From positions 6,073 to 70,072 of the forward strand of contig CAKPEV010000002.1 in assembly GCA_934149405.1 (NCBI GenBank): a DNA stretch of 64,000 bases. Direction: 5' to 3'. The DNA comes from an uncultured Clostridia bacterium. Lineage in GTDB: Bacteria; Bacillota; Clostridia; TANB77; UBA1234. Shown in pieces: positions 1-20,055 of the stretch. The notes beneath the pieces were generated by a model, which was not told the origin of the DNA, did no database searches, and worked only from the letters and a program-made list of their open reading frames with translations. Made by a program: the position numbers and the translations under genes. The first letter of the stretch is position 1. Every line of letters begins with the position of its first letter.

Positions 1-3000
1 TTTTATGACAGCATTACTATAAACAGCTTCATATGTCAATTCAAACAAGTTAGGTGATTCTAGCGCTCCTACAGGTATTTCTTTTATCTTTGACTCCTCC
101 GGATTAATCTTTACAAACTTAAATAATCTAGATTGATCATCTGTCATTTTTTCATTTATATCAGGAGTATATTCGCTTCCAAGTTGAGCTTTTACTATAA
201 CGTCTTTTACTATTTGTTTACCTTGCAAGTTCACAAATCTCAATACCGTATCTACTTTTAATGGTATATATATTACTTCTATAATGTTTAAAGATTCGTC
301 TTCTTTTACTTCGAGACTATTTGTGCTCTTTGCTTTATATTCCCAAACTCTTCCCTGGTAATCTTCTATGATATTTTCTACTTCCGGACTATATGAACTA
401 CCAATTTGAACAAGCTTTCTCTTTGGCGAACGTAGTCTGTTTCCGTATTCGTCATGATATTTATATGTTACCAAAGCTTTTTCTTCTTCATATGCTAGTA
501 CAATTACATTTTCTTTTTCATCGTGACCAACTTTTATACTTGGCTTACTGTTTGGATTATAAACCCATTTCACATTTTGATTATCTACTATTGTATCTAT
601 GATTTCAGCCTCGTATATACTTCCTATTTGTGCTTCCACAACTTTATCTTGTTTTACTGGTCTGCCTAATGGTTCTTGATATTTTATTACAACCTCTATT
701 AGTGATGGTCTATATTTCAAATCTATATAATTTTTCTTTTCGTCTCTTTCAACATATACAGACTCATTTTTTGATTTAAAGTTTCCAAATATTTTAGTTT
801 CTTCTGCTAGTCCGTACAACCATTCTTTGTCTTCTTTGTCTATAATTGTGTTTTCTATCTTAGGTTTGAATGTTGTTCCGACTTGTTCTTTATATATAGT
901 TTCATCTATGATATCATTGCCATTTTCTTCTTTATATCTGACTGCAACATTTACTTTTAATGGTTCATATTTTATATTAATAACATTTTGGTTTTCTTCT
1001 CTTTTTATTTTTAATTTTTCATCATATGAATCTGGCAATTTCCAACCAAGTTTTGTTTTTTCGTCTATTATTTCTTTCACCGGATTTGGTCTATAAACAC
1101 TTCCTATTTGTGCTTTTTCAATTGTATCTTTCTTTATTCCTTCATTTAATATACTGAAATATTTTAATGTTACGCCAACCATTTCTTTGCTATACCAGAT
1201 CTTAACTATATTTTGTTCTTGGTTCTCATTCGTTATTATCTTTTCCTTATCTACACGATTTAAGACCCATGCTTTTTCTTCTTCATCAATATAATTGTTT
1301 TCATACGGTATAACAAATATCTCCCCAACTTGTTTTGAAAATACATTTTCTTTTGCTATTAAACTTCCTTCTTCATCAACTAAATGTACTTTTATATCAC
1401 TCATCAATTTTGTGAATGTGATTTTTATTTCATTTTCTTTTTCATTTTCTTTAACAATTATCTTTTCAGCGGATACTTTATTGTATACCCATATTTTATT
1501 TTCTTTATCTGTTAGTCTCTCTATTTTTTCTGGCACAAACGTTTTACCAGCTTGTAGCTTTATCACTTTTTCTTCTACAATATCTTCATCGTTTTCATTC
1601 ACAAATCTCATGTGTATATTAGAGATCAATGGTTCATATGTTGCTACTGCATTATTTTCTTTTTCTTCAACATATTTATTATCTATTTTTATCGAGCGAT
1701 ATTTCCAAACAAGTCCAATATCATCTGCAAATTTAAGGATTGGATCTATTCTTATTTCTTTTCCTATTTGCACATCTTTTACAGAGTCTTCTCTTATTTT
1801 TTGATTATCTTGATTTTGATATTTTAACCTAACTTTTGATGTATCTTGTTCGTAATTCAACACTATTATATTTTCTTGCTCATTTTCTTTTGTTACTATT
1901 GATATGTTTTCATCACCTATATATTTCCAACGCCATTTATTTGAATCTAACACTTTGTTTTGTATGTTAGGAATGTATATTCCTCCAAGACGCACCGTTG
2001 TTATAATATTATCTATTATAGGTTTACCTGATTTTATATCTATGTGTTTTACCAACACTTTTGCTTTAACTTCACCATATATCAATTTTATATAGTTGTT
2101 ATTCTCTTTTACGATTAGGTTTTTAGGCTCACTAGATTCTATCATCCAACGTTGACCCTTGTCATCGGTTATTCTTTCAAATATTTTAGTTTCTAACTTG
2201 GCACCTATTTGCCAATCTACATCTTGATCTGCCTTTAATTTGTTATTATAAGCATCATAAAAAGCTAAAGTGACTTTCGCATTTTCCTTGTCATAATATA
2301 TTGAGAATACATTTTCTTCTTCATATCTCTTGGCAACAAATTCTTCTATCTTGTCTAAATCTATTCTCCATCGCTTGCCATCATTTGATGTGAATTTTTC
2401 TATTGGTCTATCTTTATACGTTGAACCAACTTGCATTGTTTTCTTCTTCGGCTCCATTAATTCATTTGATTCTGAATCCATATATTTTATTGTGATTGTT
2501 GTCATTAATGGTTCATATTTTAAAATTATAACATTTTCAACTTCTAGACTTTTTACAACGATTTTTCCTCCATTGTCAACGCATTTCCACATCTTTTGAT
2601 AATTATCTGTAATTTCATCTAAACTTTCTGAGTTAAACATCTCACCAACTTGTGCACTTTCTATTTTGTCACTTTTAATTGGTCTATTTTCCAAGTTCAT
2701 AAATTTAATTGTGATATTTGCCAAAATAGGTTTATATATTGCTTCTAAAATATTATTTTCTTTTTCTGGCTTTACTACTATTTCTTTATTTTTTTGTTCA
2801 GTCTTAATCTTCCATTCTCTACATTGATAATCTGTAAGTTCATCATCAAAACTGTACGAAAAACTTTTCCCTATTTGCACTAATTCTATTTTATCATCAG
2901 CTAGCTTTATGCCAGATTCATTTTTCATTGTTATTGTTACTGGCACTTTTGCTTCTGTATAGTACAAATCCACTTCATTTAGCACATTTGGTTTTGCTAA

Positions 3001-5178
3001 AATATTTATATCTGTCCCTTCTACATAGTTCCAGCCTAAGCCTTCCTTACTAAGCAAATATTTTGGAACATCTATTAAATACTTTTTGTTAGCAGCCACT
3101 GTACTTCTTTTGCTTTCAGCAAGTTCTTCGTTTGTATTTTTATTTAAATATCTAATTAATATATCTGTTCTTTCAATATCATACACCAATATAACTTTGT
3201 TTTTATCTTCACTATCTTTGGCTATAAGTTTTGAAGGTCTTGAAAATTTCAAGTGCCATTCGTCTTTGTCATTTGCTATTATTGTTTTTTTGCTTTCAAA
3301 ATCATATGTTTCTCCAACCTGAATTATTTCCTGTTTATCATCAGCAATTTTTTTGCCTTCTCTGTTTATAAATGAAAAATGTACTCTCGTAAATCTTTCA
3401 ACATATTTAAGAGTTATTATATTTAAATTTGGATCATTATTAACTATTAAAGGATCCACCCTTACTTGTTCGGCTCTCCACTCTTTTCCGTTAACATCGT
3501 TTATTATCGGAATTATTTCCGGTGTAAAATTTGAATTAGGAAATAGGTTTCCTATCTTGTTTTCTTTTAATATTTCGTTTTTTGAATTAACGTATCGCAC
3601 TGTCACATATGTAGAACCCGGAAGCGATGTTCCACCTTCAATGTATCCGCTATCTTTTTTAGATTCGAACCCATAAGATGTTTCTTTCATAGATTCTAAT
3701 GTAAAATTCAAGCTAGTTCCGTTATACATGCATACTGATGTGCTTGGTTCTTTCGGTATATATACATACACTTCAACACTAGGGATTGGCAACTTGTCTG
3801 TTTCTGCTTCGTCCGTATCATGATATAGATATGCAAGTAGATTTGGAACTCGTCCAGCATCTATAAAGGTTTCTTTTCTTATTATTGCTGTTGGAGCATT
3901 AACATTAAAATCTGCAATAGATTGACGCTTTACACTTTCTCCTTTTTCGTCTGTGTATTCTAGCTTCGTTCCAATTCTAGTCAAATCTTCTATTATGTTT
4001 TCTGATATTTTATATTTATAATCTCTACCTAAATTGTCTTCCAATGATATATATAATTTTTCTTCAAATTCTTTTGGATCAGATAAGAATTTATATCTAT
4101 AAGCTATCGGAATTATTACATCATCTTGTTCTAATCCTTCTCTTATTACACTTGTTGTTGGATTAACCAATTCAATATTTAAAGATTTTATTACCTCGTT
4201 TATGTATCCACTATAATCTTCTGCAACATGTTCTGTTCTTCTTAATGATTTTGCCACATCATCAATTATCATTTTTACTTCTACAGAATTCTTTTTCATT
4301 TCTGAATAAGATGTGTACTCATATTGTTTATTGGCTGTAAATATAGATATTTCTTCTTGCCTTTTTCCATTATCTAATAACCAATAATACGATATTCCAT
4401 TTAACGAAAAATCTGTTTTTATTGGTATTTCATCAAGTCGTATATATGGGTCATTACTACAAATTCCTGCTATTACACCGCTACCTAATCTCCTTAGGTT
4501 TGGCTCTCTTTCGTATATCTCTATTCTATTAGTTCTATTATTTATAAATCTCAATGAATATGTTGTTATATTTTCAGCATACTTATCCGGGTCATCATAC
4601 ATTTTCAATCTTGGATTTATATTTTTTACAATCATTTCATCTATTACAAAATCTGAAATTAACATCGTTAAAATTTCTTCTGTTTTTTGTGTTTGTAATC
4701 TTCTGTTTCTATCGAATGCATCTTTATATTCTAGAGTTACACCATCTCTTTCTTTTTTGTAGACATCTTCATATGTTCTACCATCATTTATCGCCTGTGT
4801 TCTTTGATTTGGCGAATATATATATATTTTAACTCTGAAATCATTAGACACAGTTATAACAGCGCTTCTCTTCGAAAGAGAATAATCAGCAACTGCAAAT
4901 TTTGTTCTAAAAGCAGTTTCAGCAGACGCAGTGTGTATATCTCCCTCTAGTACATCGCTGTAAATGTAGCTATTATTTATATTCAAAAAAGCTCTAATGA
5001 TTTCAACACATGGTTCTTCGTACTGATAAACATCAATATACTTTGAATAATCATCTACATCATTCAATTTGTTTTCTATCAATGATATATCCATTTTAGA
5101 AATTGCAGTATTTCTAACACTTTCGTTATAACCCAATGTTTCCAATTTTTCATTTAGAGCTTTTACTAGCGTATTCAT
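1..5178 (-). CDS. Very large repetitive protein, partial (about 1725 aa in the window; continues beyond position 1). Unique N-terminal region of about 700 aa, then at least 10 tandem modules of about 85-90 aa sharing a Q-x-G-x-x-Y ... W ... N-I-I-x-x-x-Y-E-P-L pattern (MucBP/Ig-like?). No signal peptide.
   Basis: No minus-strand ORF is listed for 1-5356, and every plus-strand ORF there is a low-complexity antisense artefact. My hand translation of the minus strand from ATG 5178 (RBS AGAGGTGA 5 nt upstream) stays open to the window edge, and the repeat periodicity is visible in that translation. Confidence 0.55.
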   Translation of the reverse strand, partial: MNTLVKALNEKLETLGYNESVRNTAISKMDISLIENKLNDVDDYSKYIDVYQYEEPCVEIIRAFLNINNSYIYSDVLEGDIHTASAETAFRTKFAVADYSLSKRSAVITVSNDFRVKIYIYSPNQRTQAINDGRTYEDVYKKERDGVTLEYKDAFDRNRRLQTQKTEEILTMLISDFVIDEMIVKNINPRLKMYDDPDKYAENITTYSLRFINNRTNRIEIYEREPNLRRLGSGVIAGICSNDPYIRLDEIPIKTDFSLNGISYYWLLDNGKRQEEISIFTANKQYEYTSYSEMKKNSVEVKMIIDDVAKSLRRTEHVAEDYSGYINEVIKSLNIELVNPTTSVIREGLEQDDVIIPIAYRYKFLSDPKEFEEKLYISLEDNLGRDYKYKISENIIEDLTRIGTKLEYTDEKGESVKRQSIADFNVNAPTAIIRKETFIDAGRVPNLLAYLYHDTDEAETDKLPIPSVEVYVYIPKEPSTSVCMYNGTSLNFTLESMKETSYGFESKKDSGYIEGGTSLPGSTYVTVRYVNSKNEILKENKIGNLFPNSNFTPEIIPIINDVNGKEWRAEQVRVDPLIVNNDPNLNIITLKYVERFTRVHFSFINREGKKIADDKQEIIQVGETYDFESKKTIIANDKDEWHLKFSRPSKLIAKDSEDKNKVILVYDIERTDILIRYLNKNTNEELAESKRSTVAANKKYLIDVPKYLLSKEGLGWNYVEGTDINILAKPNVLNEVDLYYTEAKVPVTITMKNESGIKLADDKIELVQIGKSFSYSFDDELTDYQCREWKIKTEQKNKEIVVKPEKENNILEAIYKPILANITIKFMNLENRPIKSDKIESAQVGEMFNSESLDEITDNYQKMWKCVDNGGKIVVKSLEVENVIILKYEPLMTTITIKYMDSESNELMEPKKKTMQVGSTYKDRPIEKFTSNDGKRWRIDLDKIEEFVAKRYEEENVFSIYYDKENAKVTLAFYDAYNNKLKADQDVDWQIGAKLETKIFERITDDKGQRWMIESSEPKNLIVKENNNYIKLIYGEVKAKVLVKHIDIKSGKPIIDNIITTVRLGGIYIPNIQNKVLDSNKWRWKYIGDENISIVTKENEQENIIVLNYEQDTSKVRLKYQNQDNQKIREDSVKDVQIGKEIRIDPILKFADDIGLVWKYRSIKIDNKYVEEKENNAVATYEPLISNIHMRFVNENDEDIVEEKVIKLQAGKTFVPEKIERLTDKENKIWVYNKVSAEKIIVKENEKENEIKITFTKLMSDIKVHLVDEEGSLIAKENVFSKQVGEIFVIPYENNYIDEEEKAWVLNRVDKEKIITNENQEQNIVKIWYSKEMVGVTLKYFSILNEGIKKDTIEKAQIGSVYRPNPVKEIIDEKTKLGWKLPDSYDEKLKIKREENQNVINIKYEPLKVNVAVRYKEENGNDIIDETIYKEQVGTTFKPKIENTIIDKEDKEWLYGLAEETKIFGNFKSKNESVYVERDEKKNYIDLKYRPSLIEVVIKYQEPLGRPVKQDKVVEAQIGSIYEAEIIDTIVDNQNVKWVYNPNSKPSIKVGHDEKENVIVLAYEEEKALVTYKYHDEYGNRLRSPKRKLVQIGSSYSPEVENIIEDYQGRVWEYKAKSTNSLEVKEDESLNIIEVIYIPLKVDTVLRFVNLQGKQIVKDVIVKAQLGSEYTPDINEKMTDDQSRLFKFVKINPEESKIKEIPVGALESPNLFELTYEAVYSNAVIK

Positions 5179-5356
5179 ATTTTCACCTCTTAAATTTTTA
5201 TCTTACGTACCTACTAAACATATATAATTTATTATATAATAATCAAAAAATTTTTCAATAGTTTTCGTTCAAAACAAGCGCCTCTTTTCGACTTTAACTT
5301 TTGCCTAAATATAAAAAACATCGTTCATGTATTTATACATTGAACGATGTTTTTTC

Positions 5357-6907
5357 TTATTCCATTTCTCCTATTTCATTTGCTTCTTTAGTGTTTCTAG
5401 AAGCTTCTGGTCTAATCATTTCTGCCTTTTCTCTTATTTTATCTGTTGCATTTATAATGCCATCAGCAAGACCATTTCTCATCTCGTTAACTTTGTTTTG
5501 AACATGTTCTGTACCCATTCTGTAAGCTGCATTTGCTTTATCCGCCAAACTTATAGCTCCATACGCAACACCACCAGCAACTCCAACTGCTACATCTCTT
5601 GCGCCATATGCCACTTCAACAGCTTTATCTTTTACTACTGTTGCTCCGTGTACTACTGCATATCTTGTGCCTGTCGCTATGTCTACAGCTTTGTCTTTCA
5701 CTACTGTTGCTCCATGTACTACTGCATCTTTTGTACCTGTCGCTATGTCTACAGCTTTGTCTTTCACTACTGTTGCTCCATGTACTACTGCATCTTTTGT
5801 ACCTGTCGCTATGTCTACAGCTTTGTCTTTCACTACTGTTGCTCCATGTACTACTGCATCTCTTGTGCCTGTCGCTATGTCTACGGCTTTGTCTTTCACT
5901 ACTGTTGCTCCATATTCTATAGCTTCTTTTGCTCCAAGTAGAGTTTCAACAGTTACATCTTTTGCAATCCACAAGGCATCTCTGCTTTTTCCAGTAATTT
6001 CTTTTACTTTATCTTCAAACTTCTCCCTCGCATTCTTCATTTTTTCAGGAACTTGGTTTGCATATGATGTTATTGCATTCATTGCAGGAGTTAAAAATTG
6101 TTCTTGAAACTTCTTTTGTCCATTTATTGATTTCAATAATCTTTTTGAAAAGAATCCTCTTACTTTATCTAAAAGATTATTGCCTTTTACTAGTGCTAGC
6201 TCTTGTTTTTTAACCTTTGCTGCATCTTTACATTCTTTTTCAAAATTCTTTTCCATTTTTTCTGATAGTTCTTCTAATTTTTCTACTTTCTCATCAGCTT
6301 TATTATATTCTTCTTGTAATTTTTCCAATGTTTCATCGAACGGAACCAACTTTTGGCTATAGTCCTCTTCCATTTCTTTAATTTCTTTTTCCAAAGATCT
6401 GCATTTTTCCGTATATTCGGCCGCTTTTTCAAAATCATTCTTTTTCGCAGCATTTATCAACTCTTTTTTTGCCTTTTTTAGTTCGTTCTCCTTTGCCTCT
6501 CTTTGTTCTTCTGGTTCCTTTACATTTTCCCTATTCTCATAAACTTCAGATATTTTTTCACTCCATTTATCTCTTTCTGCCTCAGCCTCTGTTCTTTCTT
6601 GTTCATTTGCGACAATTCTCGTTTCATATTCTTTACGTAGCTTTTCTAATGAACTTCTATATTTTTCTTCTATCTGCCTTACTCCGTTCCTTGCATTGTC
6701 ATATTTTTGAGACGCATCTTCCAAGTTAACTCCAAATTCTCTTGCTGTCTCAATACAAGTTTCTTTTAATGTTTTTGCACCATCAATAATATTTTCTTTA
6801 GCTCTTGTACATTCATATGCTACCTTTACTTTCGTATATAGCGTTACCATTTCTTTTAATTCTTTTAATAGACTAGCAATACTTTTTTGATTTCCGTTAT
6901 CTTGCAT
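5357..6907 (-). CDS. Coiled-coil protein (516 aa) with five tandem 22-aa (2x11-mer, amphipathic, LEA/apolipoprotein-like) repeats of sequence GATVVKDKAVDIATGTKDAVVH.
   Basis: ORF track; N-terminal K/E-rich heptad-like sequence; perfect tandem repeats at both protein and DNA level. Confidence 0.6.
   Translation of the reverse strand: MQDNGNQKSIASLLKELKEMVTLYTKVKVAYECTRAKENIIDGAKTLKETCIETAREFGVNLEDASQKYDNARNGVRQIEEKYRSSLEKLRKEYETRIVANEQERTEAEAERDKWSEKISEVYENRENVKEPEEQREAKENELKKAKKELINAAKKNDFEKAAEYTEKCRSLEKEIKEMEEDYSQKLVPFDETLEKLQEEYNKADEKVEKLEELSEKMEKNFEKECKDAAKVKKQELALVKGNNLLDKVRGFFSKRLLKSINGQKKFQEQFLTPAMNAITSYANQVPEKMKNAREKFEDKVKEITGKSRDALWIAKDVTVETLLGAKEAIEYGATVVKDKAVDIATGTRDAVVHGATVVKDKAVDIATGTKDAVVHGATVVKDKAVDIATGTKDAVVHGATVVKDKAVDIATGTRYAVVHGATVVKDKAVEVAYGARDVAVGVAGGVAYGAISLADKANAAYRMGTEHVQNKVNEMRNGLADGIINATDKIREKAEMIRPEASRNTKEANEIGEME
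5623..5925. repeat. Tandem direct repeat, 66-bp unit, about 4.6 copies. Copies 2-4 are identical and the end copies are degenerate.
   Basis: Unit ctttgtctttcactactgttgctccatgtactactgcatcttttgtacctgtcgctatgtctacag repeats at 5689, 5755 and 5821; it lies inside CDS 5357..6907. Confidence 0.85.
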
Positions 6908-7253: not shown

Positions 7254-7847
7254 GTGGCTTTGCAACCAAAAAAAATTATTATTAAAACTTTGTATAAAAA
7301 ATTGAATACTGACTTTTGTAATACTTTAAAAGAATATCCTAGAATTAAATTCTTTAACAAAAAAATAAATGGACAATATGTAACAACGATTAAATGTTCA
7401 AATTACTATAATGATGGTTTGCAAGGAAATAATGTTTATGGTAGCTATGTGTATCTATACACTTCTATATCTTTAATTCTTAGTGAACTAATAATTAAAT
7501 TTTTCGAATCACACTTTATTTCTTTTTTGATTAATGATTATTATTTTTATTTTTCAAATACCGAGAAAAACAGGATTAAAAATATTTCATCTATTATGCT
7601 AGATTTAAACTTTCCATCTGATAGTTCTAGGAAATTATATCTTTACAAAAAAGATTTAATTTTAAGTAGATTGCTTAATAATTTTAGGCACCACAATCAC
7701 CTATCAATTGAAGGTTTTGCCAACTTTAATTTAGACAATTATTTTTCTTTTCTCGATGATGTTATAGAAAAATCTGCACATGTATATTTTTCAAACTCTG
7801 ATCCGGGTCTTTTGATAAATTTTATATTGAATAATTTTTTTAAATGA
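7254..7847 (+). CDS. Hypothetical protein (197 aa, TTG start, RBS GAGGTG).
   Basis: ORF track; no recognisable family. Confidence 0.35.
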   Translation: MALQPKKIIIKTLYKKLNTDFCNTLKEYPRIKFFNKKINGQYVTTIKCSNYYNDGLQGNNVYGSYVYLYTSISLILSELIIKFFESHFISFLINDYYFYFSNTEKNRIKNISSIMLDLNFPSDSSRKLYLYKKDLILSRLLNNFRHHNHLSIEGFANFNLDNYFSFLDDVIEKSAHVYFSNSDPGLLINFILNNFFK

Positions 7848-7897
7848 TATATATTATATTTGAATGTTTTTTATGTTTTACAAAGGAGGAAATTAAA

Positions 7898-10465
7898 GTG
7901 TACTTATTTGGAAAAATAACTGTTAAACCACAGTTGCCAGAAAGAATTTCAGAACTATCTAATTTGGCCACAAATCTATGGTGGTCATGGAATACATATT
8001 CACTTAGACTTTACGATTATATTGATTCTAATTTGTTTGAGAAGGTAAATAAAAATCCTATTAAATTTCTTTCGCTTATCAACCAAGAGCGTTTAGATGA
8101 GGTTGCACACGATGAAGAGTTTTTGAAGGATTACGATATGGTTATAGATAATTTTAAAAATTATCTACATACTGACAATACATATTTCAACAATCATTTT
8201 CCACAAAACAAAAATGATATAATAGCATATTTTTCTGCAGAATTTGGTCTTGATGAAATCTTGCCTATTTACGCCGGAGGTCTTGGTATTTTATCTGGTG
8301 ATCATTGCAAATCTGCAAGTGATTTGGGATTACCATTCGTTCCAGTTGGTCTATTATATAAGCAGGGTTATTTTAATCAATTTATAAACAAAGATGGTAG
8401 CGAACTTTTCGACTACTCACCTAACATCATCGAGGATTTGCCTATCCTTCCTGTTCGTGACGAAAATGGTAATGAACTTATTATTCCAGTTGAATTTCCG
8501 GGAAGAATAATTTATTCAAAGGTATGGTGCATAAACGTTGGACGTGTAAAACTTTATCTTTTAGATACTGATATAGATTTAAACTCTGCTATGGATAGAC
8601 AGCTTACATTAAAGCTTTATGGCGGAAATCAAGAGATGAGAATTTCTCAAGAAATCATTTTAGGTATTGGTGGAATGCATTTGTTAAAGGCATTAAACAT
8701 TCAGCCAACTGTTTATCATATGAATGAAGGACATTCTTCTTTCGTTACATTAGAAGTTATAAAAAATTTCATGAGGGAAAAACATGTATCTTTTGCCGTT
8801 GCTAAAAAAATGGCATCTGCTTGCACAATTTTTACAACACATACACCAGTTCCAGCTGGTAATGATATATTCCCTATTGATTTAATAGATAAATATTTTA
8901 CTAGCTATTGTGCAGATTTAGGAATTAGTCGTCAAGACTTCTTAAATCTTGGTGCCAAAAAAGAAAATTCTTTTAATGATGGCTTCAACATGGCTGTACT
9001 TGCTTTAAAAATTGCAGGTGCTAAAAATGGTGTTAGTAAATTACATGGTGGAGTTTCTAGACAATTATTTGCTGAGCTTTGGCCAAACACTGCAGTTGAA
9101 GAAATCCCTATCACTTACGTTACAAACGGCGTTCATACATGTACATGGCTTGCACCTACTCTTAAAGAATTATACAATGCCTATATGCGTCCTTTCTGGC
9201 AAGAAAAGACTTACGATTTAGAAGTATGGAACGATATTGATAACATTCCCGACAAAGCATTATGGGATGCACATATGGTTCAAAAGAAAAAACTTGTTAA
9301 TCTTGTAAGAAAAAATTTAAGAGCACAAAAAGTTAGAAATGGTGCTCCAATCGATGAAATTAATGATATTGATAAAATGCTTGATCCAAACGCATTAACA
9401 ATTGGTTTTGCTAGAAGATTTGCCACATATAAACGTGCTGATTTAATTTTTAGAGATTTAGAAAGAATAACAAAAATATTAAACGACCCTCAAAGACCAG
9501 TTCAAATTATTTTTGCGGGCAAACCACATCCTGCCGATGTTCAAGGTCAAGAGTTAGTAAAGAAAATTTATGAAATTTCTCAAATGCCTCAATTTAAAGG
9601 CAAAGTATTTATTCTTGAAAATTACAACATGTACGTTGCTAGATATTTAGTAAGTGGTGTTGATGTATGGTTAAATAATCCTCGTCGTCCACTTGAAGCT
9701 AGCGGTACAAGTGGTGAAAAGGCCGGCTTAAATGGTGCCATAAACTTTAGTATTCTTGATGGTTGGTGGTACGAAGGTTATGCTGGAAACAACGGTTGGC
9801 CAATTGGTGATGACACTGAATATACTAATTATGAACTTCAAGACACAGCTGATTCACAAAGCATTTATAACGTACTAGAAAACGAAATTATCCCTCTTTA
9901 TTACGAGAAAGATACTGATGGAGATGGGCTAAATAATAAGTGGATTAAGAGAATGAAAAATTCTATAAAATCTGTTGGTGGCGTTTATAATACAGGTAGA
10001 ATGATTGTAGATTACTTAGATAGATTGTATGTTCCACAAATGAATAGAATCGATGCTATAAAAGATCATCCAGAAAAAGTTGAAGAATACTTGGCATGGG
10101 AAAATGATATACGTAGCAAATGGAGTAATATTAAAATCACTCCTATTGGAAATTTAGATGAGTTGCTTGTTAAAGCTGGTAATCAAATCGATATGTCATG
10201 CAAAGTTTACCTTGGCAACATATCTCCTGACAGTGTTACTGTTGAGGTATACTCTGGAAAGATTGATTCAACCGGAAAAATGAGTGATACTAATTTTAAA
10301 GAGATGAGCTTAGTAAATACTCTTGAAAACGGTGAATATGAATATAAGACTGAAATGGTTATTAATAACGGCGGAAGTTATGGATATACTTTCAGAGTTC
10401 TTCCAAAGCATGATTTATTAATCAATAAGCACGATTTATCTTTATGTTGCTGGTTAATGGGTTAA
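7898..10465 (+). CDS. glgP: Alpha-glucan (glycogen/maltodextrin) phosphorylase, GlgP family with the DUF3417 N-terminus.
   Basis: GTG start with RBS AAGGAGGA; motifs NLWWSWN and the PLP-site region; the ORF 7844..10465 carries a spurious N-terminal extension. Confidence 0.85.
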   Translation: MYLFGKITVKPQLPERISELSNLATNLWWSWNTYSLRLYDYIDSNLFEKVNKNPIKFLSLINQERLDEVAHDEEFLKDYDMVIDNFKNYLHTDNTYFNNHFPQNKNDIIAYFSAEFGLDEILPIYAGGLGILSGDHCKSASDLGLPFVPVGLLYKQGYFNQFINKDGSELFDYSPNIIEDLPILPVRDENGNELIIPVEFPGRIIYSKVWCINVGRVKLYLLDTDIDLNSAMDRQLTLKLYGGNQEMRISQEIILGIGGMHLLKALNIQPTVYHMNEGHSSFVTLEVIKNFMREKHVSFAVAKKMASACTIFTTHTPVPAGNDIFPIDLIDKYFTSYCADLGISRQDFLNLGAKKENSFNDGFNMAVLALKIAGAKNGVSKLHGGVSRQLFAELWPNTAVEEIPITYVTNGVHTCTWLAPTLKELYNAYMRPFWQEKTYDLEVWNDIDNIPDKALWDAHMVQKKKLVNLVRKNLRAQKVRNGAPIDEINDIDKMLDPNALTIGFARRFATYKRADLIFRDLERITKILNDPQRPVQIIFAGKPHPADVQGQELVKKIYEISQMPQFKGKVFILENYNMYVARYLVSGVDVWLNNPRRPLEASGTSGEKAGLNGAINFSILDGWWYEGYAGNNGWPIGDDTEYTNYELQDTADSQSIYNVLENEIIPLYYEKDTDGDGLNNKWIKRMKNSIKSVGGVYNTGRMIVDYLDRLYVPQMNRIDAIKDHPEKVEEYLAWENDIRSKWSNIKITPIGNLDELLVKAGNQIDMSCKVYLGNISPDSVTVEVYSGKIDSTGKMSDTNFKEMSLVNTLENGEYEYKTEMVINNGGSYGYTFRVLPKHDLLINKHDLSLCCWLMG

Positions 10466-10542: not shown

Positions 10543-11982
10543 ATGAAAAAAACAAAGATTGTTTGTACTCTTGGTCCTGCGGTTGACGATTGCAAAACAT
10601 TATCAAGACTTTGTGTTTCGGGCATGGATGTTGCCAGATTTAATTTTTCGCATGGAGATTATTCTGAACAACAAAAAAGAATTGATATGTTTAAAGCTAT
10701 TCGTGAGGAATTAGGTCTTCCTATCCCTATGATGCTTGATACAAAAGGTCCGGAGATAAGAATTGGTACATTTACAGATGGAGTTGCAATATTAAACGAT
10801 GGCTCTTTGTTTACATTAATGCATGATGTTTGCGAAGGAAATTCTTCTATGGTATATGTCAATTATGAACATTTATACGAAGAAGTTTTACCAGGAAGCA
10901 TTATCCTTATAAACGATGGAACAATACAACTTGAAGTAATTGAAATTCAAGATAAAAATATTAAATGTAGAATTTTACATGGTGGAAAATTAACTAATAG
11001 AAAGAGTGTAAACGTTCCAGGTTTAAAATTAAACCTTCCACTTTTAACAGAAAAAGATAAGAATGATATCGTATATGGCGTCAAGAATGGCTTTGATATA
11101 ATTGCTGCATCTTTCGTAAGAAAGCCTGAAGATATTCTTGCAATTAGAGAAGTTCTAAAGGAAAACAATGCCGAAAACATCAAGATAATTTCTAAAATAG
11201 AAAACCAAGAAGGTGTTGATAATTTCGATGAAATATTAAATGTTTCAGATGGAATCATGGTTGCACGTGGTGATTTAGGCGTTGAAATAGCTATGGAAAA
11301 AGTACCGACACTTCAAAAAATCTTTATTGATAAATGTAATAAGCAAGGCAAAATCGTTATCGTTGCCACTCAAATGTTAGAGTCTATGACAAACAACCCA
11401 AGACCAACTAGAGCTGAGGTTAATGATGTTGCCAATGCCGTTTATGACGGTGCAACAGCGATTATGCTTTCAGGTGAAGTTGCTGCTGGAAACTTTCCTA
11501 TTGAATCAGTCAAAACAATGGCTCAAATCGCCAAAACAGTTGAAAACGAGATTAATTATTGGGATAAATTCTCTGGCACCTCTCAAGAGTCTCTAATAGG
11601 CAAACGTAGCAATCTTATAATTGGACACACTCTTTGTGAAGTTGCTATGCAATCAAACGCAGATGCCATCTTCTCGCTTTCTGCTGGAGGACATACGCCA
11701 ATGGCAATCTCTAGTTTCAAACCACAATGCCCAATATATGCTATAACACCTAACGTATCAACGGCTAGACAATTAAACGTATCTTGGGGCATTACACCTA
11801 TTTTAGTAAAAGAAAGCCCTAACCAAATTGACATGATAAATGAAGGTTTGAAAATTGCCAAAGAAAATAACTACATTTTTGAAGGTCAAACTATAGTTAT
11901 TGGTGAAAGTGATACTTACACAACGGCAAACAATTTAAATGTTTCTATAAGCAAAAATATCGGTGGAATTTACGTAGTATAA
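10543..11982 (+). CDS. pyk: Pyruvate kinase.
   Basis: N-terminus MKKTKIVCTLGPA, the MDVARFNFSHG motif, and typical length. Confidence 0.9.
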   Translation: MKKTKIVCTLGPAVDDCKTLSRLCVSGMDVARFNFSHGDYSEQQKRIDMFKAIREELGLPIPMMLDTKGPEIRIGTFTDGVAILNDGSLFTLMHDVCEGNSSMVYVNYEHLYEEVLPGSIILINDGTIQLEVIEIQDKNIKCRILHGGKLTNRKSVNVPGLKLNLPLLTEKDKNDIVYGVKNGFDIIAASFVRKPEDILAIREVLKENNAENIKIISKIENQEGVDNFDEILNVSDGIMVARGDLGVEIAMEKVPTLQKIFIDKCNKQGKIVIVATQMLESMTNNPRPTRAEVNDVANAVYDGATAIMLSGEVAAGNFPIESVKTMAQIAKTVENEINYWDKFSGTSQESLIGKRSNLIIGHTLCEVAMQSNADAIFSLSAGGHTPMAISSFKPQCPIYAITPNVSTARQLNVSWGITPILVKESPNQIDMINEGLKIAKENNYIFEGQTIVIGESDTYTTANNLNVSISKNIGGIYVV

Positions 11983-12387: not shown

Positions 12388-12428
12388 AAAGAACTACTGC
12401 TTAACTCAAAAGCAGTAGTTCTTTTTAT
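12388..12428. terminator. Bidirectional terminator (12-bp perfect stem agaactactgct/agcagtagttct).
   Basis: Hairpin flanked by A-tract and T-tract. Confidence 0.6.
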
Positions 12429-13142
12429 TATTTATTTTTATTACATTCACATGAATTTGTTGTCGGTGTCTCAACAACTTTTTGGCAATTACATGTATTT
12501 TGCGATGCTACATTTTGATTCATTTTGCATGGACATGACTTCTGTGTATTTACCCCCATATTTGCATTTATATAAAACTTCTTTTCTGCCAATTTTTCTT
12601 GTACTGTTCTTAGTGCCTCTCCAAATCTTTGGAAATGAACTACTTCACGTTCTCTTAAAAAACGAAGTACATCTATTACATCTGGATCATCTGCTAAATC
12701 AATCAAGTATTCATATGTTGAACGTGCTTTTTGCTCAGCAGCCATATCTTCCGTCAAATCTGTTATTGGATCGCCTTTTACCGCCAACACCGATGCACTA
12801 AAAGGCACTCCTGCCGCACTTTGTGGATACACTGATATTCCATGGTCAGTATAATATGCTCCCAATCCTTCGCGTTTTAATATTTCAGGTGAAACTCCTT
12901 TTGTTAGTTGATGTACCAACGTTCCTACCATTTCAAGATGTCCGAGTTCTTCAGTTCCGAATGTCATTAAGGGTCGCTTTAGTTATTTCCGTTGGCATAC
13001 TAAATCTTTGACTTAGATATCTAAGCGATGCGCTAAGTTCGCCATCTGGACCACCATACTGACTGATTATGAACTTAGCCATTTGCGGATTTGGATTTTT
13101 TATATTTACAGGATATTGTAATTTTTTATCATAACCCCACAT
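12428..13142 (-). pseudogene. cotJC: Spore coat protein CotJC (manganese-catalase family). It is split into two ORFs under standard decoding by a +1 shift at the in-frame CGG codon 12957-12959. Skipping the C restores the conserved ...LNDI-G-TEELGHLEM...
   Basis: ORFs 12951..13142 (N-terminus) and 12428..12967 (C-terminus) are both CotJC homologues; the junction was read base by base. Confidence 0.8.
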
Positions 13143-13148
13143 TTATTT

Positions 13149-13403
13149 CTACCCCCTATCCCAAGGCCATGGATTACTTATCCATAACCATTCACAATCT
13201 GTTGCAGCATCGACTGCAGTTAATGGGCCGTACTTACTTTCATACTCTTCTCTTTTTTCCATCGCTTCATCCGCAGTATCTTGATACAAGCACAACATAT
13301 CTTTATCAAATGGATGTGTGTCTAAATATAGTTGTAAATCATACAATTTAAAGTCTAATGCTTGCAATTCTCTTAATATACATTCTCTATCGTCCACAAT
13401 CAT
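13149..13403 (-). CDS. cotJB: Spore coat protein CotJB.
   Basis: Motifs LQALDFKLYDLQLYLDTHP...CEW..ISNPWPW. Confidence 0.8.
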   Translation of the reverse strand: MIVDDRECILRELQALDFKLYDLQLYLDTHPFDKDMLCLYQDTADEAMEKREEYESKYGPLTAVDAATDCEWLWISNPWPWDRG

Positions 13404-13674
13404 CCACCTCCTTACAAGTCTCCGTTTGTGATAAATACTCTATTATACATTGAGATTGATTTTGTACATATGGCGACACAAGCTCTGGAAATGTTGTTCC
13501 ATTATTAAGTGACTCTTTAGGGCAAAACGTATCAGTCGCATATTGATATGGCACATAACTATTGGCCAATTGTGGATTTTCTGGGCATACAGGTGGCATC
13601 TGGCATTTCCTACATTCCATTTCGTCTTTGCCGCATCCACATCTACGCCTACTATATCGATTTCTCATATACAT
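13387..13674 (-). CDS. cotJA: Spore coat-associated protein CotJA.
   Basis: LANSYVPYQ...TTFPEL..PY pattern; operon position. Confidence 0.6.
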   Translation of the reverse strand: MYMRNRYSRRRCGCGKDEMECRKCQMPPVCPENPQLANSYVPYQYATDTFCPKESLNNGTTFPELVSPYVQNQSQCIIEYLSQTETCKEVDDCGR

Positions 13675-17122: not shown

Positions 17123-17198
17123 TGGCTGGGGTAGTAGGATTCGAACCTACGAAATATCCGGTTCAGAGCCGGAGGCCTTACCGCTTGGCTATACCCCA
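17123..17198 (-). tRNA. tRNA-Gln, anticodon CUG, CCA encoded.
   Basis: The reverse complement folds as a cloverleaf (acceptor TGGGGTA/TACCCCA, anticodon stem TCCGG/CCGGA with loop CTCTGAA, T-loop TTCGAAT). It is close to Bacillus tRNA-Gln. Confidence 0.85.
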
Positions 17199-17233
17199 AT
17201 ATATAATGAGTGAATAAATTCACTCATTTTGTT

Positions 17234-17425
17234 TTATTCTTCTATTTTGTTTAATTCTTCAACAACACTATCTACGTCTATTCCATGTACTGCACAAGCT
17301 TCTTCTAAAGATTCACCTGCAGATGCTGGACAACCTAAGCAGTGCATACCTGCATTTAGTAATACTTCTATATATTTGTCCCCTTTTTCAACAATTTGTC
17401 CAATTAACATTTCTTTAGTTACCAT
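17234..17425 (-). CDS. DUF1858-type small redox/disulfide protein (about 63 aa, start MVTKEML, RBS AGGAGG).
   Basis: MHCLGCP motif; the internal start has a strong SD; the track ORF is over-extended. Confidence 0.55.
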   Translation of the reverse strand: MVTKEMLIGQIVEKGDKYIEVLLNAGMHCLGCPASAGESLEEACAVHGIDVDSVVEELNKIEE

Positions 17426-17652
17426 AATATCAATTCCTCCTTCTAAATTTATTAAATATTGTCTAACTTTCGTATTGTGTAAAAAATGTATGTTACCACT
17501 TAAGAAAAAATTTTTCAAGTCCGTAACTTTTTTGTTTCAAAAATTTTTCGACATTTTATTTTATAAAGTGCTTATATTTAAGCAATTGCCACGCAAAATA
17601 CGCCGCGAAATTTGTCGAATAATCTGACAAATATTTTTGTTTTCAAAAGTAC

Positions 17653-17680
17653 TAGACAAAAGAAATTTTTTTGTTATAAT
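17653..17680 (+). promoter_or_regulatory. Candidate sigma-A promoter: TAGACA, 16-nt spacer, extended -10 TGTTATAAT.
   Basis: Read from the sequence; lies upstream of the T4SS-like gene block. Confidence 0.45.
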
Positions 17681-17705
17681 TTGCTTAAAGGTGGTGATAA
17701 AAATT

Positions 17706-17935
17706 TGAAAGCTACACGTTTTCACCTTTGTTTAATTTTAGTTCTATTATTTTTTTCAATAATATTTAATTTCGTATTAGACATCTCAACTGTAATGAAC
17801 TTATTCCTATATATATCATTATTCCAAATATTATTTTCAATATGTATAGTATATTCATTATTTGAAGTAACTTTTTTGCACGAAAAACAAGGATCTAAAT
17901 TAAATCTAAGCAAAGGAAAATTATCTTCAAAATAG
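17706..17935 (+). CDS. Possible small membrane protein (about 76 aa, TTG start, RBS GGTGGTGA); its stop is 4 nt before the next gene.
   Basis: Two hydrophobic helices; position downstream of the promoter. Confidence 0.3.
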
Positions 17936-17938
17936 GAG

Positions 17939-19627
17939 TTGATTCGTATTCTTAACACAAAAGCATTATATAACAAAATTCGTTTTGTTTCAATAACTGT
18001 ATCAATAATCTTTATTTTTAATTTTATACTTTTTATTAAAGTTTACCTTTCTAGTAATTATTCTTTCTTTTTATTTAACGAAACACGTCATATTAATTCA
18101 AAATATTGGTTTTGCTTAAAGGTCTTACATTTAATATCTACTCTTTTCTTTTGGCTATTTATATCCAATAGTCTGTATTCGAAATTCTTCTATAATTCCC
18201 CCAAAATAACCAGTAAGCAATCTACAGACTATGGAAATATAAATCTACTTCTCGGCCATAACATTGAGAGCAATCAGCCAGTTATAATCCCAGAAAAAGG
18301 ACTATATCAAAATATTTTGATAACAGGTACTATTGGAACAGGAAAAACTTCCAGTGCAATGTACCCATTCGTCAATCAGTTAATGAAGAAAAACCTTGGA
18401 ATGTTAGTTCTTGATGTAAAAGGAAACTTTCATAATAAAATTAAAGAGTTTGCAAAATTATATAATAAAAAAGTAACCGTTATTGAATTAAACGGAAAAG
18501 AAACGTATAACCCCTTAGACAAGCCAAATTTAAAACCATCTATATTAGCAAATCGCTTAAGAACAATACTGACTCTATTTTCAAATCAAAACACATCAGA
18601 CACTTATTGGTTAGACAAAGTAGAATCTTTTTTAACAGAAGCTATCAAATTATGTCGTATATACAATGAAGGATACGTCACCTTTATTGAGTTACACAAA
18701 CTTATTTATGACAAAGATTATTTAAATCAAAAAATTAGTCTAGCAAAAAATTTGTTTCTTTCTAATTCCCTTTCCAAAGAGCAGATATATGAGTTTTCAA
18801 CATGTTTAGACTTCTTTTTCTCAGAATTTAAAATGCTTGACAGCAAAGTTCTTTCAATCATTCAATCTGAAATTTCTAGAATTACTCAAATTTTCGTTAA
18901 TGATTTAGAGGTTAAAAATACATTCTGTCCGCCAAAAGAAAAAATAACATTTAAAGGTTTTCAGGATTTAGAAAATTCCATTGTTGTTTTAAATATGAAT
19001 ATAGCTGAATACAGAAATCTTTCTAAAATAATTGCTACTTATTTAAAGTTAGATTTTCAGTCAGAAGTTCTTATGCGACTTGCTAAGCCAACAACAATTT
19101 CTCCAGTTGCTTTCATTTGCGATGAGTACCAAGAATATGTTACAGCTAATGATGCAGATTTCTTTTCAGAAAGCAGGGAAGCAAAATGCATAAACATAGT
19201 TTCTACACAAAGTTACACATCCATTTTAAATGCTGTAAAAGACCAATCTTCTGCAAAAGTAATCATACAGAGTTTAGTAAACAAAATATGGTTTCGTACA
19301 GATGATATCTTCACTATTGAAGAAGCTCAAAAGCAACTTGGAAAAGAAGATAAAATAAAATATTCTCGAAGCATATCAGAAAATGCGAAAGAAACAAAAT
19401 ATAATTACTTACTACATTCTTTCAAATCTGATGCTTCTAATTTATCAGAAAGTATTAGCACTCAAGTACATCATGACTTTATATATGATACAAATGCTTT
19501 TTCTGTTGATTTAAAAACATTTCATGCAATTTGCTTTATTTCAACTGGTTCTGCGGTAATACCTGCACAACACGTCAGATTAACCCCGATTCATGAAATT
19601 TTCTTAAGCAACACAAAATTTATTTAA
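17939..19627 (+). CDS. Membrane-anchored P-loop ATPase resembling type IV secretion coupling proteins (VirD4/TraG/TcpA-like).
   Basis: Two N-terminal TM helices; Walker A GTIGTGKTSS; Walker B FICDEYQEY; 562 aa. Confidence 0.5.
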   Translation: MIRILNTKALYNKIRFVSITVSIIFIFNFILFIKVYLSSNYSFFLFNETRHINSKYWFCLKVLHLISTLFFWLFISNSLYSKFFYNSPKITSKQSTDYGNINLLLGHNIESNQPVIIPEKGLYQNILITGTIGTGKTSSAMYPFVNQLMKKNLGMLVLDVKGNFHNKIKEFAKLYNKKVTVIELNGKETYNPLDKPNLKPSILANRLRTILTLFSNQNTSDTYWLDKVESFLTEAIKLCRIYNEGYVTFIELHKLIYDKDYLNQKISLAKNLFLSNSLSKEQIYEFSTCLDFFFSEFKMLDSKVLSIIQSEISRITQIFVNDLEVKNTFCPPKEKITFKGFQDLENSIVVLNMNIAEYRNLSKIIATYLKLDFQSEVLMRLAKPTTISPVAFICDEYQEYVTANDADFFSESREAKCINIVSTQSYTSILNAVKDQSSAKVIIQSLVNKIWFRTDDIFTIEEAQKQLGKEDKIKYSRSISENAKETKYNYLLHSFKSDASNLSESISTQVHHDFIYDTNAFSVDLKTFHAICFISTGSAVIPAQHVRLTPIHEIFLSNTKFI

Positions 19628-19681
19628 CATAGAAAGGAGGAAGTATGATGCATTAGGTTTCTCAATGTATCATACACAAAA

Positions 19682-20035
19682 ATGAATTTTCCTAAAAAAA
19701 TATTAAAAAACAAGCATGCTTACGTTGCTTTCAAAATTTTTCTCACATCATTTTTATTTGTAATATCATTTACAAATCCCACTTTTGCAGCGACAGCAAA
19801 AATAATTTCAAAATTAGAATCAGCACTTAATACAATTAGCAAATGGATTGTCAGAATAGCCACACCAGCAGCTGCTGTAGCAATTGGCTCAGGTTTACTA
19901 ATTAAAAAATTTAGTTTTGGTGACGAAGAAAGAATGGCAACCGGAAAAAAGATTATACGAAATTCTTTATTTTCATACGCTTTCGTTTTAGTAATAGATT
20001 TGGTACTTGATGCTATCAAAAGCATCGTAACCTAA
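19682..20035 (+). CDS. TrbC/VirB2-like pilin-type protein (signal peptide ending TFA-A, then two hydrophobic helices).
   Basis: Protein architecture only. Confidence 0.45.
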   Translation: MNFPKKILKNKHAYVAFKIFLTSFLFVISFTNPTFAATAKIISKLESALNTISKWIVRIATPAAAVAIGSGLLIKKFSFGDEERMATGKKIIRNSLFSYAFVLVIDLVLDAIKSIVT

Positions 20036-20055
20036 TAAAAGGAGTTGATACATAC

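What the first reader, a model, noticed from the sequence alone, without database searches (positions are those of the whole stretch)
1..5178. Protein of more than 1700 aa with tandem modules, no signal peptide, running off the window edge
The minus strand from ATG 5178 is open for the whole 5.2 kb. The plus-strand ORFs in the track are antisense artefacts rich in S/F/I. After a unique region of about 700 aa, the protein is built from at least 10 modules of about 85-90 aa with conserved Q-x-G, a Trp, and N-I-I-x-x-Y-E-P-L (MucBP/Ig-like). Lacking a signal peptide, and lying near cotJ and a sporulation-type glgP, it could be a mother-cell-made spore surface or appendage protein; that part is speculation.
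Basis: partly seen in the sequence, partly recalled or inferred. Interest (0 to 1): 0.55.

Follow-up and report, generated by a model that had tools for sequence, protein, structure and literature searches.

The report
Leaderless giant MucBP-rod protein in glycogen locus
This is a real, strongly conserved gene for a ~2,270-residue protein with no export signal, made of two previously unseen end domains joined by exactly 19 MucBP modules; it sits inside the glycogen gene cluster of uncultured gut and rumen Clostridia and looks more like a fixed-length intracellular scaffold than the surface adhesin or spore protein its repeats suggest.

Summary
The minus strand from ATG 5178 is open for 1,726 codons. 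A 96%-identical orthologue gives a full length of 2,270 aa.

Architecture:
- an orphan N-terminal domain of about 520 aa (not 700)
- 19 MucBP β-grasp modules with a 74-aa period (16 in the window; not ≥10 of 85-90 aa)
- an E/K-rich linker
- an orphan helical C-terminal domain of about 270 aa
- no signal peptide, TM segment or LPXTG in 17 orthologues

The family is rare (38 clusters among 1.84 billion representatives) and confined to uncultured gut/rumen Clostridia. Length is fixed at 2,226-2,326 aa. Modules are one-to-one orthologous across species (317/323). dN/dS is 0.037, similar to the neighbouring pyk and glgP.

A near-consensus σA promoter precedes the gene in 19 of 20 orthologues, and no σE/σK motif was found. 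The gene lies between the α-glucan phosphorylase/YtxC-like operon and GH57 branching enzyme-DUF4912-GT4 synthase in about 17 of 19 species.

Best reading (confidence ~0.35): a cytoplasmic rod-like scaffold or tether linked to α-glucan storage. The spore-surface idea is weakly supported. Function is inferred only from context, and a repeat-less distant relative lies near oriC/parAB instead.

The parts
1..5178 (-). 5' 76% of the giant gene: codons 1-1726 of about 2,270. The 3' end runs off the window.
   Evidence: The frame is open with no stops. The 96%-identical orthologue L001:10001-16813 is 2,270 aa. dN/dS is 0.037.
3607..5178 (-). Orphan N-terminal domain, aa 1-524. It is a mixed alpha/beta multi-subdomain head. 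Residues ~405-441 resemble half a module, and residues 488-524 form a low-confidence linker.
   Evidence: Only 9 hits in 5.8 billion proteins and 38 clusters in 1.84 billion. No Pfam or NCBIfam match and no PDB sequence match. AF2 pLDDT 79.5, pTM 0.76. No Foldseek relative in PDB or BFVD.
22..3615 (-). 16 tandem MucBP-type beta-grasp modules (aa 522-1719), period 74 aa. They are modules 1-16 of 19.
   Evidence: Iterated HMM, alignment A4 and Pfam MucBP. The fold matches YwfG 7yl6, 2kyw and 2kvz.
1..21 (-). First residues of module 17, cut by the window edge.
   Evidence: module 17 starts at residue 1727 in L001.
5184..5191 (-). Ribosome-binding site AAGAGGTG, 5 nt upstream of the ATG.
   Evidence: Read from the sequence. 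GAGGTG is conserved in nearly all the orthologues shown.
5231..5258 (-). Sigma-A type promoter, TTGAAA-16-TATAAT.
   Evidence: 11 of 12 consensus matches. The same pattern is conserved in 19 of 20 orthologues against 1.2% background.
5357..6907 (-). Lineage-specific 516-aa ORF (coiled-coil-like, with five 22-aa repeats) inserted between the giant gene and the ytxC-like gene. It is not part of the conserved block.
   Evidence: Present only in the window and L001. No significant Pfam match. Sequence. dN/dS 0.128.
7254..7847 (+). YtxC-like gene, transcribed divergently from the giant gene. Its end overlaps the phosphorylase start by 4 nt.
   Evidence: Pfam YtxC 62 bits. TIGR02834 scores 54.6 bits, below its cut-off. 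Present in 12 of 19 loci.
7844..10465 (+). Alpha-glucan phosphorylase (DUF3417 plus phosphorylase domains), a conserved neighbour.
   Evidence: Pfam. TIGR02094 846 bits. Adjacent in 18 of 19 loci.
10543..11982 (+). Pyruvate kinase, the last gene of the conserved block on this side.
   Evidence: Pfam PK 429 bits. Present in 18 of 19 loci.

Best explanation
The gene encodes a cytoplasmic, fixed-length, rod-like scaffold or tether.

Its parts are a globular N-terminal head of a fold with no relative found in the libraries searched, a stiff rod of exactly 19 individually specialised MucBP beta-grasp modules, a flexible E/K-rich linker and a helical C-terminal domain. My estimate of the rod length is roughly 70-80 nm. 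That figure was not computed.

The gene is transcribed from its own sigma-A promoter. I infer that the protein works with the intracellular alpha-glucan (glycogen/granulose) machinery encoded on both sides of it. It may organise, space or tether polyglucan granules or the enzymes acting on them, with the two end domains providing the specific contacts and the rod setting a distance.

Shown: the architecture, the absence of export or anchor signals, the frozen repeat array, strong purifying selection, the conserved promoter and the conserved synteny.

Inferred: cytoplasmic location, the link to alpha-glucan, and the spacer/tether mechanism.
For: 1. No signal peptide, TM segment or LPXTG in 17 full-length orthologues. 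No N-terminal extension is possible.
2. Length is fixed at 2,226-2,326 aa across orthologues that share 34-95% N-domain identity, and at 2,262-2,270 aa among the listed complete members of a 106-member 90% cluster.
3. Every orthologue has 19 modules at the same positions. The best cross-species match is the same-index module in 317 of 323 cases, with 42.5% orthologous against 25% paralogous identity.
4. dN/dS is 0.037 (0.030 for the modules), against 0.019 for glgP and 0.022 for pyk.
5. A sigma-A promoter is conserved in 19 of 20 orthologues.
6. The block pyk-phosphorylase-(ytxC-like) <> giant - GH57 branching enzyme - DUF4912 - GT4 glycogen-synthase-like is kept in about 17 of 19 species. The outer flanks are scrambled and DUF4912-GH57 has inverted in place. 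Nine further metagenome loci show the giant gene next to GH57.
7. Precedent: R. bromii Amy11 is a leaderless CBM48-GH13-MucBPx3 pullulanase (PMC5814915). The only PDB sequence hit of the module profile is R. bromii Amy10 (E 0.003).
8. A repeat-less relative has the N-domain followed directly by a helical C region. This suggests that the end domains are the functional unit and the array is a spacer.
Against: 1. The link to alpha-glucan rests on gene order alone. In lineages without the giant gene, DUF4912-GH57 and ytxC-like are already adjacent. The giant gene could therefore be a clade-specific insertion that hitch-hikes in a cluster held together for other reasons.
2. Two fairly close relatives have GT4-DUF4912-GH57 with no giant gene beside it (L036, L040).
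3. The repeat-less relatives P0036 and its 705-aa paralogue lie between mnmG and rsmG/parAB near oriC, not among glycogen genes.
4. MucBP modules are overwhelmingly extracellular in characterised proteins. Cys content is intermediate (0.47% against 1.03% for all ORFs), so composition does not prove a cytoplasmic location.
5. No carbohydrate-binding activity of these modules, or of the Amy10/11/12 MucBP modules, is documented in the passages read from these papers.
Confidence: 0.35

Rival explanations
1. It is a cell-surface or extracellular adhesin, like other MucBP head-rod-tail proteins. It would be exported by a non-classical route or released by lysis, with the N-domain as the binding head and the C-terminal helical domain as a non-covalent anchor or oligomerisation unit.
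For: The MucBP fold and Pfam match. A head-plus-rod layout resembling YwfG and Mub (general knowledge). Cys content (0.47%) is lower than in neighbouring enzymes at 0.9-1.8%. The hosts live in gut and rumen.
Against: No signal peptide, TM segment, LPXTG, SLH or dockerin in any of 17 orthologues. No secretion or holin gene in the conserved block. No repeat-number variation between or within species. Modules are not homogenised. dN/dS is 0.03, unlike typical surface adhesins.
Confidence: 0.2
2. It is a cytoplasmic structural or tethering protein with a role unrelated to glycogen, for example in cell organisation or chromosome/segregation-linked functions. Its position in the glycogen cluster would be historical hitch-hiking after a single insertion.
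For: In outgroups DUF4912-GH57-ytxC-like is contiguous without the giant gene. The distant repeat-less paralogues sit between mnmG and rsmG-parA-parB near oriC. Both end domains are orphans with no carbohydrate-related signature.
Against: Adjacency to GH57/DUF4912 survives local inversions, insertions and loss of the upstream block (L001/L002 against the rest, L009, L016, L019). Only a single oriC-region context is known for the mini relatives.
Confidence: 0.2
3. It is a spore-associated protein made without a leader in the mother cell and deposited on the coat, exosporium or appendages.
For: The protein is leaderless. The organism carries cotJABC about 7 kb away. A YtxC-like gene is adjacent, and YtxC is needed for sporulation/germination in C. 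perfringens (PMC9332280). Polyglucan storage precedes sporulation in clostridia (general knowledge).
Against: A sigma-A type promoter is conserved in 19 of 20 orthologues and no sigma-E, sigma-K or sigma-G-like motif was found. cotJ is not part of the conserved block. There is no similarity to known coat or exosporium families in Pfam or NCBIfam.
Confidence: 0.12
4. It is not a functional gene but a decaying or chance ORF in AT-rich DNA.
For: None, apart from one split copy in L013, a MAG whose glgP is also split.
Against: The frame is open over 6.8 kb in 17 species. dN/dS is 0.037 with dS 0.47. Conservation is uniform along the whole length. The RBS and promoter are conserved.
Confidence: 0.01

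Closest known systems
MucBP-repeat cell-surface proteins of Gram-positive bacteria (Lactobacillus Mub, Lactococcus YwfG, Pediococcus PEPE adhesin 2kyw, Listeria lmo0835 2kvz)
   Same: The same beta-grasp MucBP module (Pfam PF06458, 73 bits; Foldseek probability 0.85-1.0 to 7yl6, 2kyw and 2kvz). Tandem modules follow a distinct N-terminal head.
   Different: No signal peptide and no LPXTG or other anchor. The N- and C-terminal domains are orphans. The module number is frozen at 19 with one-to-one orthology. Purifying selection is very strong. The genomic setting is glycogen genes.
Ruminococcus bromii MucBP-bearing pullulanases: Amy10/Amy12 (secreted, amylosome) and Amy11 (no signal peptide)
   Same: MucBP modules attached to alpha-glucan metabolism in Clostridia. 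Amy11 is leaderless (PMC5814915). Amy10 (9qf8) is the only PDB sequence matched by the module profile (E 0.003).
   Different: Those proteins are GH13/CBM48 enzymes with 1-3 MucBP modules, and some carry dockerins. This protein has no catalytic or CBM domain, has 19 modules and is not detectably related outside the modules.
Rod-forming tandem-domain proteins such as SHIRT-repeat SGO_0707, and granule-organising scaffolds such as plant starch-granule initiation proteins or the PHB-granule tether PhaM (functional analogies from general knowledge only)
   Same: Single-domain repeats with short linkers that would form an extended rod. SHIRT domains appear as weak fold matches. The idea of a protein that positions or sizes a storage granule.
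   Different: There is no sequence or fold relationship to the granule scaffolds. SHIRT repeats are near-identical and extracellular, whereas these modules share only 25% identity and the protein is leaderless.

Membership tests
MucBP domain (Pfam PF06458) | Sequence match to the family HMM above the gathering threshold | tested here: met
   73.1 bits against a cut-off of 23 for the window protein, and 93 bits for the full-length L001 orthologue.
MucBP domain (Pfam PF06458) | Beta-grasp MucBP fold | tested here: met
   The AF2 model of the last module(s) in orthologue fragment P0045 matches YwfG 7yl6 (probability 1.0, rmsd 4.1 over 78 columns), 2kyw and 2kvz.
Gram-positive MucBP surface adhesins (Mub/YwfG/internalin type) | N-terminal Sec/YSIRK signal peptide | tested here: not met
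   The N-terminus is hydrophilic in all but one of 17 orthologues (max 15-residue hydropathy <=1.03; L002 1.72). An in-frame stop lies 9 codons upstream of the ATG.
Gram-positive MucBP surface adhesins (Mub/YwfG/internalin type) | C-terminal LPXTG sortase motif with a hydrophobic/charged tail, or another wall anchor | tested here: not met
   The C-terminus is a conserved soluble helical domain ending in K/E-rich residues. There is no LPXTG and no TM segment.
Gram-positive MucBP surface adhesins (Mub/YwfG/internalin type) | Variable repeat number and homogenised repeats (typical, not strictly defining) | tested here: not met
   19 modules in all 17 orthologues, and 317 of 323 best matches at the same index. 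Lengths of 2,262-2,270 aa within a 106-member cluster.
Spore coat / exosporium proteins | Mother-cell (sigma-E/sigma-K) promoter | tested here: not met
   The motif scan found none in 20 upstream regions, and a sigma-A promoter is conserved in 19 of 20. This is a consensus scan only and does not measure expression.
Spore coat / exosporium proteins | Presence in purified spore fractions | not testable with these tools
   The organisms are uncultured and no proteome was available.
Amylosome-type MucBP pullulanases (R. bromii Amy10/11/12) | GH13 catalytic domain with CBM48 (plus or minus CBM26 and dockerin) | tested here: not met
   MucBP is the only Pfam family found in the window protein and in the full-length orthologue.
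Glycogen/alpha-glucan gene cluster component (operational, by synteny) | Conserved adjacency to alpha-glucan enzymes across species | tested here: met
   The giant gene is adjacent to GH57 (and DUF4912 in 16) in 17 loci, and the phosphorylase is in 18 of 19 loci. Nine further metagenome loci agree.
Glycogen/alpha-glucan gene cluster component (operational, by synteny) | Physical binding to alpha-glucan or to the cluster's enzymes | not testable with these tools
   This needs binding assays or complex prediction, which could not be run here.

The most novel reading that the evidence does not exclude
The protein is a dedicated structural component of bacterial polyglucan storage: a fixed-length molecular ruler or tether that nucleates, sizes or positions glycogen/granulose granules. 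In this reading its orphan end domains dock onto the glucan or onto GH57/DUF4912/GT4/phosphorylase, possibly linking granules to another cellular structure. That would be the first protein scaffold described for bacterial glycogen granules, which a 2024 review describes as lacking any protein content to cluster their beta-particles (PMC11046441).
Probability: 0.25. Interest if true: 0.8.

Novelty: new variant of a known kind. Interest (0 to 1): 0.55.

Why it matters
MucBP repeats are used almost automatically to label proteins as mucus or surface adhesins. This family shows the module used in a leaderless protein of invariant length, under housekeeping-level constraint, with two end domains that have no sequence or structural relatives in the libraries searched. 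It is embedded in the GH57-type glycogen locus of uncultured gut and rumen Clostridia.

If the contextual inference is right, it points to a protein-organised form of bacterial polyglucan storage and gives a concrete candidate to test. If it is wrong, the family is still an uncharacterised, highly constrained giant intracellular protein. It also links YtxC-like, DUF4912 and GH57 genes, an association found in none of the papers searched here.

Tried and rejected
- The profile of the 74-aa module was too short for the word-indexed protein search.
- Pfam, NCBIfam and PDB-sequence profile searches of the N- and C-domains gave only noise.
- No relative of the N-domain exists in IMG/VR viral contigs, so a phage origin was dropped.
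- The metagenome scan for the repeat-less subfamily found nothing.
- Cys content as a localisation test was inconclusive.
- Literature searches for DUF4912, for MucBP with glycogen, and for granulose granule proteins found no description of this protein or of a bacterial glycogen scaffold.
- A large-clostridial-toxin-like reading (leaderless, with holin-dependent release) was considered and dropped. There is no toxin domain in Pfam and no holin in the conserved block.
- A promoter scan of the divergent ytxC-like/glgP operon was uninformative because its start sites are uncertain.
- Rfam found no structured RNA near the gene.

Full report
**Observation.** The minus strand from ATG 5178 to base 1 translates into 1,726 codons without a stop. 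The start is unambiguous. AAGAGGTG lies 5 nt upstream of the ATG, an in-frame TAA lies 9 codons upstream, and the hairpin with a T-run of the preceding gene lies further upstream. Pfam reports MucBP (PF06458, 73 bits against a cut-off of 23) and nothing else.

An HMM iterated on the protein itself resolves the repeats into 16 complete modules at residues 525-1716. Each has a 68-aa core and a 6-aa linker, giving a 74-aa period, and a 17th module begins at the window edge. N65 is invariant, and W46 and Y71 are conserved in at least 90% of modules. The Q and G columns of the Q-x-G motif are marked as conserved in at least 70% of modules. 'YEPL' ends only 3 of the 16 modules.

**Full length and family.** The N-terminal 524 aa found only 9 proteins among 5.8 billion. 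A profile of them found 38 clusters among 1.84 billion representatives. Every complete member is 2,227-2,324 aa. A scan of one genome per species returned 19 loci, all from uncultured gut or rumen Clostridia MAGs.

L001 is 96% identical at the protein level over the window's part of the gene (dS 0.47). It gives the complete gene, which is 2,270 aa. All 17 complete orthologues are 2,226-2,326 aa, although their N-domains are as little as 34% identical to the window's. Each has exactly 19 modules at near-identical positions. Within the 90% cluster of the L001 protein (106 members), the listed complete sequences are 2,262-2,270 aa. The only names any public source gives are 'MucBP domain-containing protein'.

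**Architecture.**
- *N-terminal domain.* AF2 models it with confidence (pLDDT 79.5, pTM 0.76) as a mixed alpha/beta multi-subdomain head. It has no Foldseek relative in PDB or BFVD (best E 0.17 and 0.02). It also has no PDB-sequence, Pfam or NCBIfam match. Residues ~405-441 match the first half of the module HMM, so the last subdomain may be a degenerate module.
- *C-terminal region.* After module 19 comes a variable E/K-rich linker, then a conserved, all-helical domain of about 270 aa (pLDDT above 90). It also lacks relatives.
- *Modules.* The module included in that model matches solved MucBP structures: YwfG 7yl6 (probability 1.0), 2kyw and 2kvz.
- *Signals.* No orthologue has a signal peptide, a conserved TM-like segment or an LPXTG motif. 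The pI is about 5.1.

**How the array evolves.** Same-index modules from different species are 42.5% identical, and different-index modules are 25% identical whether within or between species. In 317 of 323 cases a module's best cross-species match is the module at the same index. Conservation is even along the whole protein.

Against L001, dN/dS is 0.037 overall: 0.058 for the N-domain and 0.030 for the modules. The neighbouring phosphorylase is at 0.019 and pyruvate kinase at 0.022. The array is therefore ancient and frozen, and each module is individually constrained. That is the opposite of the expanding, homogenised repeats of typical surface adhesins.

**Expression signals.** TTGAAA-N16-18-TATAAT lies 26-98 nt upstream of the start codon in 19 of 20 orthologues. 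The spacer often ends in TG, a possible extended -10. The same pattern occurs in 1.2% of background 200-nt windows. No sigma-E or sigma-K type motif is present. Rfam finds no structured RNA here.

**Genomic context.**
- In about 17 of 19 species the order is pyruvate kinase, alpha-glucan phosphorylase (TIGR02094, 846 bits) and a YtxC-like gene, transcribed divergently from the giant gene. Beyond the giant gene come GH57 branching enzyme, DUF4912 and a GT4 glycogen-synthase-like gene. The best NCBIfam match for the GT4 gene is TIGR02149, below its cut-off.
- Genes outside this block differ between species. DUF4912-GH57 is inverted in place in L001/L002, extra genes are inserted in L009 and L016, and L019 has lost the upstream half but keeps GH57-DUF4912.
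- A metagenome scan anchored on DUF4912 added nine more loci with the giant gene next to GH57. It also found two fairly close relatives (L036, L040) with GT4-DUF4912-GH57 and no giant gene beside it.
- In distant lineages DUF4912-GH57 lies directly beside a full-length YtxC-like gene, with no giant gene.
- The giant gene is therefore a clade-specific insertion into a pre-existing GH57/DUF4912/YtxC-like cluster.
- The 516-aa ORF between it and ytxC-like in this window is found only in the window and L001.

**A repeat-less relative.** P0036 (817 aa) matches the N-domain profile (E 2.9e-11; 22% identity over residues 18-442) and has no MucBP module. Its helical C-terminal part matches the giant's C-domain HMM only weakly, though colinearly (conditional E about 0.004 for each of two pieces). 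A 705-aa full-length paralogue lies next to it.

Both sit between mnmG and rsmG-parA-parB near oriC, not among glycogen genes. No further members were found. This suggests that the two end domains are an older functional unit and that the 19-module array is an inserted spacer. It also warns that the end domains need not be glucan-specific.

**Interpretation.** A leaderless protein with a fixed rod, individually conserved modules, housekeeping-level constraint and a sigma-A promoter is best read as an intracellular structural protein. The only functional pointer is its persistent position among alpha-glucan genes.

Two literature points bear on this. R. bromii Amy11 is a leaderless pullulanase carrying three MucBP modules (PMC5814915). 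Amy10 is the only PDB sequence hit of the module profile (E 0.003). The passages read from these papers do not document glucan binding by those modules. A 2024 review states that bacterial glycogen has no protein content to cluster its beta-particles (PMC11046441), so a scaffold would be new.

I therefore put about 0.35 on a glucan-linked cytoplasmic scaffold or tether. I put about 0.2 on an unrelated cytoplasmic role with hitch-hiking synteny and about 0.2 on a non-classically exported adhesin. It retains some support from cotJ at 12.4-13.7 kb and from the YtxC-like neighbour, given that YtxC is a sporulation/germination gene in C. perfringens (PMC9332280). The promoter and the synteny count against it.

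**Novelty.** The module is known. The architecture, the two orphan domains, the frozen array, the lack of any export signal and the genomic setting appear in none of the papers searched. I rate it a new variant of a known kind, of moderate to good interest, with a minority chance of being something new in bacterial storage-granule biology.

Noticed in passing
L052, L056, L057, L060, L062, L067, L069-L071 (around 10,000 in each); window 7254-10465: A YtxC-like gene is repeatedly adjacent to DUF4912-GH57 branching enzyme in lineages that lack the giant gene. In this window a short YtxC-like ORF overlaps the start of the alpha-glucan phosphorylase by 4 nt. The papers found for YtxC and DUF4912 do not describe a link between YtxC-like proteins and GH57-type glycogen genes.
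   Followed up: partly
window 5357-6907 (-): A lineage-specific 516-aa ORF (window and L001 only) with a long charged, coiled-coil-like N-terminal half and five tandem 22-aa repeats (ATVVKDKAVDIATGTxDAVVHG). It has no Pfam family, dN/dS is 0.128, and it is inserted between the giant gene and ytxC-like.
   Followed up: partly
L020 7839-12454: Two tandem repeat-less paralogues (705 and 817 aa) of the giant protein's N-domain, each with a helical C region, lie between mnmG and rsmG-parA-parB near oriC in an unidentified organism. They are extremely rare: two contigs carry P0036, and a metagenome scan found no further members.
   Followed up: partly
window 12428-13142 (-): The CotJC-like (Mn-catalase family) gene appears split into two overlapping ORFs (12951-13142 and 12428-12967). 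This could be a frameshift, a pseudogene or a sequencing error. CotJB- and CotJA-like ORFs lie at 13149-13403 and 13387-13674.
   Followed up: no
window 26637-28171 (-): A ComM/Mg-chelatase-like gene is split into two ORFs, 27440-28171 (ChlI N-terminal part) and 26637-27329 (AAA plus C-terminal part). This may be a frameshift or an interrupted gene.
   Followed up: no
window 17126-21000: A tRNA gene (17126-17198, -) is followed by conjugation-type genes: a TraG/TrwB-like coupling protein at 17939-19627 and a TrbL/VirB6-like gene at 20567-20962. Further TraG-like and Tad/T2SSE ATPase genes lie at 33.7-38 kb. This may be an integrated mobile element or its remnant.
   Followed up: no
L034, L036, L039, L040, L044, L048: Rumen lineages carry a second, shorter phosphorylase-like gene (546-570 aa) next to the GT4 synthase, in addition to the ~850-aa phosphorylase on the other side of the giant gene.
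   Followed up: no
L013 9845-16802: In this MAG the giant gene is split (366 + 1,949 aa) and its phosphorylase is split too (737 + 134 aa). Assembly frameshifts are more likely than true pseudogenes.
   Followed up: no
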